This document shows, one piece after another, positions 42,001 through 43,764 of a DNA stretch of 64,000 nt (position 1 is its first letter; every line of letters starts with the position of its first letter). Position numbers: made by a program. Source of the stretch: Escherichia coli (lineage in GTDB: Bacteria > Pseudomonadota > Gammaproteobacteria > Enterobacterales > Enterobacteriaceae); NCBI RefSeq assembly GCF_003790525.1, contig NZ_CP033636.1; one strand, 5' to 3'.

Positions 42001-43764
42001 GTCAGACGGGCACCGGCCTTCGCGTTTGAGCAGAGCAAGCGCGCGACCATAGGCGGGCGCTTTATCCGTGTTGATGAATCGCGGGATCTGCCACTTCTTC
42101 ACGTTGTTGAGGATTTTACCCAGAAACCGGTATGCAGCTTTGCTGTTACGACGGGAGGAGAGATAAAAATCGACAGTGCGGCCCCGGCTGTCGACGGCCC
42201 GGTACAGATACGCCCAGCGGCCATTGACCTTCACGTAGGTTTCATCCATGTGCCACGGGCAAAGATCGGAAGGGTTACGCCAGTACCAGCGCAGCCGTTT
42301 TTCCATTTCAGGCGCATAACGCTGAACCCAGCGGTAAATCGTGGAGTGATCGACATTCACTCCGCGTTCAGCCAGCATCTCCTGCAGCTCACGGTAACTG
42401 ATGCCGTATTTGCAGTACCAGCGTACGGCCCACAGAATGATGTCACGCTGAAAATGCCGGCCTTTGAATGGGTTCATGTGCAGCTCCATCAGCAAAAGGG
42501 GATGATAAGTTTATCACCACCGACTATTTGCAACAGTGCCATTCTCACATGCGATCTCGAGTAGCCAGTTGTGGAAAACCGACATAAACATCCCCTGTTA
42601 CCCTGAAACTCTACTCACCATTTTTTCATAATTATATACAAACAGCCAGAAAGGCTGTTACAGGCGATTTGATCTGCAACCTATTGGTTAAATTAATGTA
42701 TCAAAAACGATGGTTTCTGTGACACATCCCTATAAGCAGTTGCCTATACAATAAAACGCTCTCCGGCTGTAACAAAACCCGTTACAGTATCAATACAACA
42801 AAAACGATGTAACAAAATAGGGTGGCAAAATGATAATCGGCTATGCGCGTAAATCGACACATCTTCAGGATGTAACGCATCAGGTTGATGAACTGACAAA
42901 AGCGGGTTGCGAGCAAATCTATCATGAACAGATCTCACGCGGCGGCACTAAACGCGCCAAAAATGGTGCCCCGGAAGGCACTGTTGCAAAGTTAGCGATG
43001 AGGCAGCCTTTTGTCTTATTCAAAGGCCTTACATTTCAAAAACTCTGCTTACCAGGCGCATTTCGCCCAGGGGATCACCATAATAAAATGCTGAGGCCTG
43101 GCCTTTGCGTAGTGCACGCATCACCTCAATACCTTTGATGGTGGCGTAAGCCGTCTTCATGGATTTAAATCCCAGCGTGGCGTTGATTATCCGTTTCAGT
43201 TTGCCATGATCGCATTCAATCACGTTGTTCCGGTACTTAATCTGTCGGTGTTCAACGTCAGACGGGCACCGGCCTTCGCGTTTGAGCAGAGCAAGCGCGC
43301 GACCATAGGCGGGCGCTTTATCCGTGTTGATGAATCGTGGGATCTGCCACTTCTTCACGTTGTTGAGGATTTTACCCAGAAACCGGTATGCAGCTTTGCT
43401 GTTACGACGGGAGGAGAGATAAAAATCGACAGTGCGGCCCCGGCTGTCGACGGCCCGGTACAGATACGCCCAGCGGCCATTGACCTTCACGTAGGTTTCA
43501 TCCATGTGCCACGGGCAAAGATCGGAAGGGTTACGCCAGTACCAGCGCAGCCGTTTTTCCATTTCAGGCGCATAACGCTGAACCCAGCGGTAAATCGTGG
43601 AGTGATCGACATTCACTCCGCGTTCAGCCAGCATCTCCTGCAGCTCACGGTAACTGATGCCGTATTTGCAGTACCAGCGTACGGCCCACAGAATGATGTC
43701 ACGCTGAAAATGCCGGCCTTTGAATGGGTTCATGTGCAGCTCCATCAGCAAAAGGGGATGATAA

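What the first reader, a model, noticed from the sequence alone, without database searches (positions are those of the whole stretch)
42541..42976. Orphan serine-recombinase start with upstream res-like repeats, cut by IS26
The sequence before the 49-codon recombinase fragment contains several TGT-N-ACA-type motifs (ctgttacagg, ctgtaacaaaacccgttacag, gatgtaacaaaa) resembling resolvase/invertase binding sites. The fragment is unrelated to the Tn2 tnpR remnant on the other side of the same IS26, so the IS joins two different recombinase genes.
Basis: seen in the sequence. Interest (0 to 1): 0.3.

Follow-up and report, generated by a model that had tools for sequence, protein, structure and literature searches.

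The report
IS26-trapped relic of IncN resolvase site
The 436-bp segment is a known leftover of an IncN plasmid backbone, holding its multimer-resolution (res) site and the first 49 codons of the resolvase gene resP, caught between two IS26 copies in an IncHI2 resistance plasmid; it is ordinary debris of IS26-driven plasmid shuffling.

Summary
Window 42830-42976 encodes the first 49 residues of a serine recombinase, and the upstream motifs are real and far from random.

This is not an unknown gene. All 436 bp (42541-42976) are 100% identical to IncN1 plasmid backbone. They comprise the first 15 codons of ecoRII on the minus strand, the 244-bp ecoRII/resP intergenic region, and the first 147 nt of resP. 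ResP is the same protein as the resolvase next to integron In1 in R46, presumably the published uvp1.

The segment is the right-hand tip of a 4.86-kb block (38121-42976). That block is collinear at 99.9% with IncN plasmid pYLPI24b, where resP continues intact. IS26 cuts the gene after codon 49. About 25 large IncHI2-type plasmids carry the identical IS26-436 bp-IS26 arrangement.

Comparison of six plasmid lineages reveals a res-like layout:
- a 28-bp dyad (42697-42724, central AT), where left and right flanks have been reassorted several times;
- a 43-nt spacer that is conserved in length but not in sequence;
- two conserved accessory blocks (42768-42819).

The likely crossover site was not flagged.

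The recombinase stub is dead. The res site is probably intact but inert unless ResP is supplied in trans. Already known; low interest.

The parts
38121..42540 (.). Left part of the IncN-derived block: IS26, lnu(F), aadA22, intI1 truncated at 41720, then IS26 (41721-42540, tnp26 on the minus strand)
   Evidence: Window 38121-42976 equals pYLPI24b (IncN) L012:406-5258 at 99.88% over 4,856 bp. Gene names come; IS26 ends.
42541..42585 (-). 5' end of ecoRII (first 15 codons, MSVFHNWLLEIACEN), cut by IS26
   Evidence: 100% identical to pRSB201 L001:4001-4045, where it is annotated ecoRII.
42586..42829 (.). Divergent ecoRII/resP intergenic region of IncN1, containing the inferred res site
   Evidence: 100% identical to IncN1 plasmids. 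Motif enrichment.
42642..42664 (.). Conserved only in the closest lineages; role unknown.
   Evidence: The IRi end of a class 1 integron abuts 42640|42641 in pE66An-type plasmids.
42697..42724 (.). Block 1, the candidate crossover site (res site I): TGTATCAAAAAC-GATG-GTTTCTGTGACA, a 12+4+12 imperfect dyad with central AT (42710-42711)
   Evidence: Conserved in five lineages down to a relative with 60% protein identity. Flanks left and right of it are reassorted between lineages. Only one copy per IncN plasmid and per window. Aligns in register with the Mu gix site at 16 of 26 positions. Function is inferred, not shown.
42725..42767 (.). Spacer, diverged in sequence (about 50% identity) but without indels
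   Evidence: The R46 In1 IRi end sits at the equivalent of 42739|42740.
42768..42792 (.). Block 2, candidate accessory site: TGTAAC-N7-GTTACA followed by GTATCA.
   Evidence: Conserved in all five lineages.
42795..42819 (.). Block 3, candidate accessory site: ACAACAAAAACG-AT-GTAACAAAATA. It holds two half-site-like repeats in direct orientation and repeats CAAAAACGATG of block 1.
   Evidence: (repeats D1, D5, D8).
42830..42976 (+). resP 5' fragment: codons 1-49 of 198, including the catalytic-serine motif YARKST. The frame reads through into IS26, giving a 102-aa ORF that ends at 43138.
42977..43796 (-). IS26 (820 bp) joining the resP fragment to the Tn3-type tnpR remnant. No 8-bp duplication (flanks CCCCGGAA and GGTGGAGG).
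43797..44193 (+). 3' remnant of a Tn1/2/3-type tnpR (residues 55-185), followed by blaTEM-1 at 44376-45236
   Evidence: Identical to Tn3 resolvase residues 55-185. blaTEM-1.

Best explanation
The segment is an inactive relic of an IncN1 plasmid's multimer-resolution module.

Shown:
- The 436 bp are identical to the IncN1 backbone. They carry the first 15 codons of ecoRII, the divergent intergenic region and resP codons 1-49.
- They form the end of a 4.86-kb block that is collinear with an IncN plasmid (pYLPI24b type), in which an IS26-bounded lnu(F)-aadA22 integron has replaced most of ecoRII-dcm.
- In the window's IncHI2 lineage a further IS26 cuts resP after codon 49 and joins it to an IS26-truncated Tn3-type tnpR-blaTEM-1 module.

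Inferred, protein: the 49-aa stub keeps the serine nucleophile. It lacks about two thirds of the catalytic domain, the dimerisation helix and the helix-turn-helix domain, so it cannot recombine DNA.

Inferred, site: the intergenic region carries the complete ResP res site.
- Crossover site: a 28-bp dyad at 42697-42724 with a central AT.
- Spacer: 43 nt.
- Accessory sites: two blocks (42768-42819) just upstream of the start codon.

In an intact IncN plasmid, ResP dimers would bind these sites, synapse two directly repeated res copies in a plasmid dimer, and exchange strands at the central AT to restore monomers. Here the site is a single orphan copy. It does nothing unless ResP arrives in trans on a co-resident IncN plasmid.
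For: Identity and context:
- 100% identity to IncN plasmids, with resP and ecoRII annotated.
- The same protein lies next to In1 in R46.
- 4,856-bp collinearity with pYLPI24b.
- The same IS26-436-IS26 unit occurs in about 25 large IncHI2-type plasmids. The window flanks are IncHI2 backbone.

Truncation:
- Pfam matches only residues 2-41 of the stub, whereas full ResP has Resolvase + HTH_7.
- No other ResP-like sequence is in the window.

Res site:
- Motif clustering, P about 5e-6.
- Three conserved blocks with a spacer of conserved length across lineages down to 60% protein identity.
- Flanks are reassorted at block 1. IncN1 vs TUM12126 is 98% identical on the left and 81% on the right. TUM12126 vs p22F46_3 is 54% left and 99% right. 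p22F46_3 vs IN01 is 81% left and 61% right (Fisher P 1e-38 for the first pair).
- One block-1 copy per IncN plasmid.
- Two independent class 1 integron (Tn402-type) ends lie at 42640|41 and 42739|40, either side of block 1. This fits the known habit of that transposon family of inserting at occupied res sites (the habit itself is established knowledge: Minakhina 1999; Petrovski & Stanisich 2010).
- ResP is Gin-like (4m6f, E 6e-39), and block 1 aligns in register with the Mu gix site.
Against: - No binding or recombination data exist here for the uninterrupted IncN1 site. The subsite assignment is comparative inference.
- R46 lacks block 1 next to resP, because In1 is inserted 15 bp to its right. 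Even so, a resolution activity was reported there with boxes I and II in the integron 5'-CS (Tosini 1998, as summarised in PMC12217951). I found no block-1-like sequence in that 5'-CS. Block 1 may therefore not be indispensable, or R46 uses a hybrid site.
- The gix resemblance is modest: 16 of 26, matched once by chance in 5.2 kb.
- No convincing resP promoter was found.
- The IS26 junctions carry no target duplications, so the order of events cannot be reconstructed.
Confidence: 0.85

Rival explanations
1. The IS26-436 bp-IS26 unit is itself an active IS26 pseudo-compound transposon or translocatable unit. On this view it moved into this site on its own and spreads a res site between plasmids.
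For: Two directly oriented IS26 copies flank it. The identical unit is present in about 25 plasmids from E. coli, Salmonella and Klebsiella.
Against: The full-score matches listed are all large (223-372 kb) plasmids; pMCR1_025943 shares 7.3 kb of surrounding context, and others share the window's IncHI2 backbone. That fits vertical descent better than repeated transposition. The unit continues leftward, collinear with an IncN plasmid, for 4.86 kb. No 8-bp duplication flanks the unit (CCGTAGAA vs GGTGGAGG).
Confidence: 0.1
2. The res architecture is real, but the crossover site is not block 1. Strand exchange would occur further right, for example in block 3, which repeats CAAAAACG-AT-G. Block 1 would then be an accessory or outer boundary site.
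For: R46 retains only blocks 2-3 next to resP, yet is reported to resolve. Block 3 shares 11 bp, including the central CGATG, with block 1.
Against: Block 3's two halves are direct rather than inverted repeats, and block 2 is a 19-bp dyad with an odd centre. Neither suits a symmetric 2-bp staggered cut (inference from known serine-recombinase sites). The switches in flank identity fall at block 1. In particular, the IncN1/TUM12126 pair is already diverged in the spacer to the left of blocks 2-3.
Confidence: 0.15
3. The repeats are not recombination sites. They would be operators for transcriptional control of ecoRII or resP by some other protein, or simply chance.
For: They lie in a divergent promoter region. 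Resolvase sites commonly double as operators, so the two roles are hard to separate.
Against: Chance is excluded. The conserved blocks travel with the resolvase gene even where the left-hand neighbour is not ecoRII. Module boundaries and integron insertions focus on this spot.
Confidence: 0.05
4. ResP is a DNA invertase of the Gin/Hin type, and block 1 is one end of an invertible segment.
For: The closest solved structures are Gin invertase (E 6e-39, against 2.6e-18 for gamma-delta resolvase). One record annotates a relative as 'DNA-invertase hin'. Block 1 resembles gix.
Against: A complete IncN1 plasmid has a single block-1 site and no inverted partner. Accessory blocks adjoin the site, as in res. 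The identical protein in R46 is the resolvase next to In1, presumably the uvp1 reported to resolve cointegrates (Tosini 1998, via PMC12217951).
Confidence: 0.03

Closest known systems
IncN1 plasmid resolvase ResP (the resolvase beside In1 in R46, presumably uvp1) and its upstream region
   Same: 100% nucleotide identity over all 436 bp. The 49 aa equal ResP residues 1-49. The R46, pRSB201 and pYLPI24b proteins are identical.
   Different: Here only codons 1-49 remain and the piece sits in an IncHI2 plasmid between two IS26 copies. In R46 the upstream site is split by In1, whereas here it is uninterrupted.
Tn3 / gamma-delta res-TnpR cointegrate resolution system
   Same: Same protein family. 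The site lies upstream of the recombinase gene. The crossover site is 28 bp (12+4+12) with a central AT, lies furthest from the gene, and is followed by two accessory sites. The site acts as a natural reassortment point (the Tn3 layout is from established knowledge).
   Different: Only 27% protein identity. The spacing differs: 43 nt between the first and second sites, against 22 in gamma-delta. Block 3 consists of direct rather than inverted half-sites. The half-site sequence TGTAWCAAAAC is different.
Gin/Hin DNA invertases and the invertase-like ISXc5 resolvase
   Same: ResP is closest in sequence to Gin. The block 1 half-site TATCAAAAAC resembles the gix/hix half-site TTATCCAAAACC. That ISXc5 resolvase is an invertase-like protein using a three-subsite res with a gix-like site I is from memory, not tested here.
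   Different: No second inverted site and no invertible segment. The central dinucleotide is the symmetric AT, not the TC seen in Mu gix.
IS26 pseudo-compound transposons / translocatable units (Harmer & Hall)
   Same: A short passenger segment between two directly oriented IS26 copies inside a multi-IS26 resistance region.
   Different: The passenger carries no resistance gene, there are no flanking duplications, and there is no evidence of independent movement.
IncN1 segments reported in mcr-1 IncHI2 plasmids (3,050-bp deltarepA-iterons-resP-deltaIS26; PMC9769515) and IS26 insertions in resP of IncN plasmids (PMC7843705)
   Same: The same phenomenon: IS26-bounded pieces of the IncN replication/resolution region embedded in other plasmids. 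pOW1E2a holds the exact complement, resP nt 148 onward with iterons and repA.
   Different: The window holds the opposite (5') side of the break. None of the repA/iteron part is present in these 64 kb.

Membership tests
Small serine recombinase (resolvase/invertase, PF00239 + PF02796) | N-terminal catalytic motif with the serine nucleophile | tested here: met
   PF00239 at 25.3 bits against a cut-off of 23.3, residues 2-41. MIIGYARKST aligns with Gin MLIGYVRVST.
Small serine recombinase (resolvase/invertase, PF00239 + PF02796) | Complete catalytic domain of about 140 aa, including the long dimerisation helix | tested here: not met
   Only 49 of 198 codons are present. The parent protein matches profile positions 1-144.
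Small serine recombinase (resolvase/invertase, PF00239 + PF02796) | C-terminal helix-turn-helix DNA-binding domain (HTH_7) | tested here: not met
   Absent from the window copy. Present at residues 144-188 of full ResP.
IncN1 plasmid backbone (ecoRII - res - resP region) | Collinear nucleotide identity with reference IncN1 plasmids | tested here: met
   436 of 436 identical to pRSB201 and many IncN plasmids. 4,856 bp at 99.88% to pYLPI24b.
Resolvase res site (multi-subsite, Tn3-like logic) | A dyad-symmetric crossover site with an even centre, next to the recombinase gene | tested here: met
   42697-42724 is a 12+4+12 dyad with 9 of 12 half-site agreement and a central AT.
Resolvase res site (multi-subsite, Tn3-like logic) | Accessory binding sites at fixed spacing between the crossover site and the gene | tested here: inconclusive
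   Two conserved blocks and a length-conserved 43-nt spacer. Binding has not been shown.
Resolvase res site (multi-subsite, Tn3-like logic) | One copy per replicon monomer | tested here: met
   A single block-1 match in the 38.9-kb pYLPI24b and in the window.
Resolvase res site (multi-subsite, Tn3-like logic) | Site-specific exchange at the site (natural hybrids switching parentage there) | tested here: met
   Left and right identity are discordant at block 1 in at least three lineage pairs.
Resolvase res site (multi-subsite, Tn3-like logic) | Binding and strand exchange by the cognate resolvase | not testable with these tools
   Needs footprinting and a resolution assay. Only second-hand data for the rearranged R46 site are available.
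DNA invertase system (Gin/Hin) | Two crossover sites in inverted orientation bounding an invertible segment | tested here: not met
   No second site matching at 19 of 28 or better in a complete IncN1 plasmid.
IS26 pseudo-compound transposon | Two IS26 copies in direct orientation around a passenger | tested here: met
   IS26 at 41721-42540 and 42977-43796, both with tnp26 on the minus strand.
IS26 pseudo-compound transposon | 8-bp target duplication flanking the whole unit (copy-in insertion as a unit) | tested here: not met
   The outer flanks are CCGTAGAA and GGTGGAGG.

The most novel reading that the evidence does not exclude
The orphan but apparently complete ResP res site could still be a working cis element. 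If an IncN1 plasmid shares the cell, its ResP might occupy this site. That could occasionally fuse the IncHI2 and IncN plasmids by res x res recombination, or attract Tn402-type integrons to this spot. The relic would then be a hidden driver of IncHI2-IncN hybrids and integron capture rather than inert debris.
Probability: 0.07. Interest if true: 0.35.

Novelty: already known. Interest (0 to 1): 0.1.

Why it matters
It matters little beyond bookkeeping. The segment marks past contact between an IncN1 plasmid and the IncHI2 (pHNSHP45-2-like) resistance-plasmid lineage, and it is a useful signature for tracing that lineage. The side result has modest specialist value: a comparative map of the uninterrupted IncN ResP res site, with a probable 28-bp crossover site at which plasmid modules have been swapped and next to which class 1 integrons have landed twice. 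I found no description of it in the searchable literature, but it needs experimental confirmation.

Tried and rejected
- Rest of resP in the window: blastn with the IncN locus and tblastn with ResP find only residues 1-49 and the distant TnpR remnant.
- Rest of IncN in near-identical plasmids: pMCR1_025943 holds only a deltarepA + iteron piece about 30 kb away. No 3' resP was found in the 50 kb examined. The first 50 kb of pNDM33-1 hold nothing IncN. The remaining parts of those plasmids were not fetched.
- Target-site duplications: none for five of the six IS26 copies. A search with the hypothetical duplicated junction IS26|CCCCGGAACTGG found no intact match in 72,556 plasmids.
- Promoter scan: the only hit near resP overlaps the start codon, so it was rejected.
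- Rfam: nothing above noise.
- gix comparison: 16 of 26 in register, equalled once by chance, so it counts only as weak support.
- Block-1-like site in the R46 integron 5'-CS: none.
- Literature: the Tosini 1998 paper is not held. No paper found defines the uninterrupted IncN res site.
- R46's second resolvase is Tn3-like with its own Tn3-like res. It was rejected as the source of this fragment.

Full report
**What is at the coordinates**

Window 42541-42976 is a 436-bp stretch between two complete 820-bp IS26 copies, at 41721-42540 and 42977-43796. Both have the transposase gene on the minus strand. An ATG at 42830 opens a frame that runs 49 codons to the IS26 end, then reads on through IS26 as a 102-aa ORF ending at 43138. 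The 49 residues pass Pfam's own threshold for the Resolvase N-terminal domain (25.3 bits against 23.3).

They are not chance. Three of the nine TGTWACA sites in 64 kb fall in the 244-bp intergenic stretch (P 4.6e-6). All three GTAWCAAAA sites of the window are there, on one strand.

**Identity**

The whole 436 bp is 100% identical to IncN plasmids. 315 plasmid records cover at least 80% of it, and there are matches in 503 of 5,426 complete E. coli genomes. In pRSB201 the annotation resolves it into three parts:
- the first 45 nt of ecoRII on the minus strand (15 codons, MSVFHNWLLEIACEN);
- the 244-bp divergent intergenic region;
- the first 147 of 597 nt of resP, annotated 'resolvase ResP'.

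The R46 recombinase that lies next to integron In1 is the identical protein, as is the pYLPI24b copy. That gene is presumably the one published as uvp1 and reported to resolve cointegrates (Tosini 1998, as cited in PMC12217951). I did not test that name assignment. Full-length ResP has Resolvase + HTH_7 domains. It is closer to Gin invertase (E 6e-39) than to gamma-delta resolvase (E 2.6e-18).

**Context and origin**

The window's outer parts are IncHI2 backbone of the pHNSHP45-2 / pMCR1_025943 kind. Between them lies a resistance region with six IS26 copies.

The 436 bp are not an isolated scrap. Window 38121-42976 is collinear at 99.88% over 4,856 bp with the 38.9-kb IncN plasmid pYLPI24b. 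The shared order is IS26, lnu(F), aadA22, truncated intI1, IS26, ecoRII stub, intergenic region, resP. In pYLPI24b, resP then continues intact into the iterons and repA. So an IncN1 plasmid of that type donated the block, and a further IS26 cut it after resP codon 49.

About 25 large plasmids (223-372 kb) from E. coli, Salmonella and Klebsiella carry the identical IS26-436-IS26 arrangement. pMCR1_025943 matches window 36541-43796 at 99.99%.

No other IncN sequence and no other ResP-like coding sequence is in the window. Elsewhere the complementary half does exist:
- pOW1E2a has a truncated IS26 abutting resP nt 148, followed by the iterons, repA and another IS26.
- The literature describes a 3,050-bp IncN1 segment in mcr-1 IncHI2 plasmids, and IS26-bounded insertions in resP of IncN plasmids (PMC9769515, PMC7843705).
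- pMCR1_025943 keeps a deltarepA + iteron relic about 30 kb from the 436-bp piece.

**The other side of the IS26**

Window 43797-44193 encodes residues 55-185 of a Tn3-type resolvase. It is identical to the solved Tn3 protein over that span and is followed by blaTEM-1. They are not unrelated, however: ResP aligns with the remnant at 27% identity, E 6e-14. I did not discriminate between Tn1, Tn2 and Tn3.

**Anatomy of the upstream repeats**

I aligned the region with four other lineages:
- IncN-R TUM12126 and pE66An, at about 81-83% nucleotide identity;
- p22F46_3;
- pAVS0968-D;
- IN01 plasmid 1, whose resolvase is only 60% identical.

Three islands are conserved:
- Block 1, 42697-42724: TGTATCAAAAAC-GATG-GTTTCTGTGACA. 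It is a 28-bp imperfect dyad (12+4+12, 9 of 12 half-site agreement) with a central AT.
- Block 2, 42768-42792: TGTAAC-N7-GTTACA followed by GTATCA.
- Block 3, 42795-42819: ACAACAAAAACG-AT-GTAACAAAATA. It repeats 11 nt of block 1 and carries two half-site-like sequences in direct orientation.

The 43 nt between blocks 1 and 2 are only about 50% identical between lineages, yet show no indels. The first (ctgttacagg) belongs to a palindrome conserved only among the closest relatives. Block 1 was not flagged.

**Evidence that block 1 is a recombination point**

Sequence relatedness switches exactly there.

| Lineage pair | Identity left of block 1 (300 bp) | Identity right of block 1 (500 bp) |
|---|---|---|
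| IncN1 vs TUM12126 | 98% | 81% |
| TUM12126 vs p22F46_3 | 54% (unrelated) | 99% |
| p22F46_3 vs IN01 | 81% | 61% |

For the first pair, a finer count gives 818 of 825 identical to the left and 566 of 697 to the right (Fisher P 1e-38). Such reassortment of flanks is what site-specific exchange at a res crossover site produces in Tn3-family elements (established knowledge).

Further support:
- A complete IncN1 plasmid has only one block-1 sequence. This argues for a resolution site rather than an inversion system.
- Block 1 aligns in register with the Mu gix site at 16 of 26 positions. The half-site is TATCAAAAAC against TTATCCAAAACC. One chance match in 5.2 kb scores the same, so I count this as weak support only.
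- Class 1 integron IRi ends abut this region at two different positions and in the same orientation: at 42640|42641 in the pE66An-type plasmids and at 42739|42740 in R46. Tn402/Tn5053-family elements are known to home to resolvase-occupied res sites (established knowledge).

**A caveat from R46**

In R46 the integron separates resP and blocks 2-3 from where block 1 would be. Block 1 is absent from the roughly 70% of R46 that I fetched. A review of Tosini 1998 states that boxes I and II of the R46 res lie in the integron 5'-CS. I found nothing like block 1 in that 5'-CS.

Either R46 uses a hybrid site, or block 1 is not strictly required. The subsite roles given here are therefore inference, at roughly 60% confidence for 'block 1 is the crossover site'. 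The identity of the fragment is not in doubt.

**How it works, or rather does not**

In an intact IncN plasmid, ResP would bind the blocks, synapse two res copies in a plasmid dimer and exchange strands at the central AT. This mechanism is inferred from the family. In this window:
- The recombinase is reduced to 49 residues and lacks most of the catalytic domain and the DNA-binding domain (shown).
- No other ResP-type gene is present (shown).
- The res site, as I delimit it, is complete but single.

The fragment is thus a passive relic. It could act only as a substrate for ResP supplied in trans.

**Unresolved detail**

The window's junction (resP nt 147|IS26) and pOW1E2a's junction (IS26|resP nt 148) are exactly complementary, with no shared 8-bp duplication. 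Copy-in IS26 transposition should leave those 8 bp on both products.
- No plasmid in the collection has the duplicated junction.
- A third IS26 junction lies 19 bp away in pZPK-H11.
- Only one of the six IS26 copies in the window has a duplication: 47631-48450, CTTCTGGT.

**Verdict**

This is IncN1 backbone debris (ecoRII stub, res, resP stub) trapped by IS26 in an IncHI2 multiresistance plasmid. Novelty: already known. Interest: low.

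Noticed in passing
window 42976|42977; L009 4001|4002 (pOW1E2a); L014 about 1566 (pZPK-H11): IS26 junctions cluster in resP nt 128-148. The window's junction and pOW1E2a's are exactly complementary with zero overlap, instead of sharing the 8-bp duplication that copy-in transposition should leave. No plasmid in PLSDB has the duplicated junction.
   Followed up: partly
window-equivalent 42640|42641 (L006, pE66An type) and 42739|42740 (L018, R46): Two independent class 1 integron IRi ends lie within 100 bp, in the same orientation, either side of the candidate crossover site. This fits res-site hunting by Tn402-type elements. It also explains why R46's published res is said to reach into the 5'-CS.
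   Followed up: partly
window 47631-48450: This is the only IS26 of the six in the window with an intact 8-bp target duplication (CTTCTGGT), i.e. a simple insertion. The other five have unmatched flanks.
   Followed up: yes
window 42977-43796 vs 41721-42540: The two IS26 copies flanking the fragment differ at three positions (99.63% identity). In pMCR1_025943 they correspond to two transposase accessions, WP_001067858 and WP_001067855, so they are not recent copies of each other.
   Followed up: no
window 42541-42829, minus strand, into IS26 41721-42540: The retained ecoRII upstream region and first 15 codons point into the left IS26 in the sense direction of tnp26. An outside promoter might therefore read into the transposase gene. 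No promoter was identified.
   Followed up: no
window 34591-36369: The strA-strB (aph(3'')-Ib / aph(6)-Id) segment is inverted and relocated relative to pMCR1_025943, where it follows blaTEM-1 and sul2. In the window an IS1-like sequence follows blaTEM-1 at about 45383-45997.
   Followed up: no
L017 about 14135-14900 (R46 record 50134-50900): R46 carries a second, Tn3-like resolvase (MRLFGYARVST...). It has its own Tn3-type site upstream (CGTCCGAAATATTATAAATTCTCGGACA). It is distinct from ResP and may be the 'per' system of the older literature.
   Followed up: no
window 1-1188: The best IncHI2 backbone matches start only at window position 1189. The first 1.2 kb differ from those plasmids, and bases 1015-1188 match sequence just upstream of an IS3-family transposase gene in pCP53-92k.
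   Followed up: no
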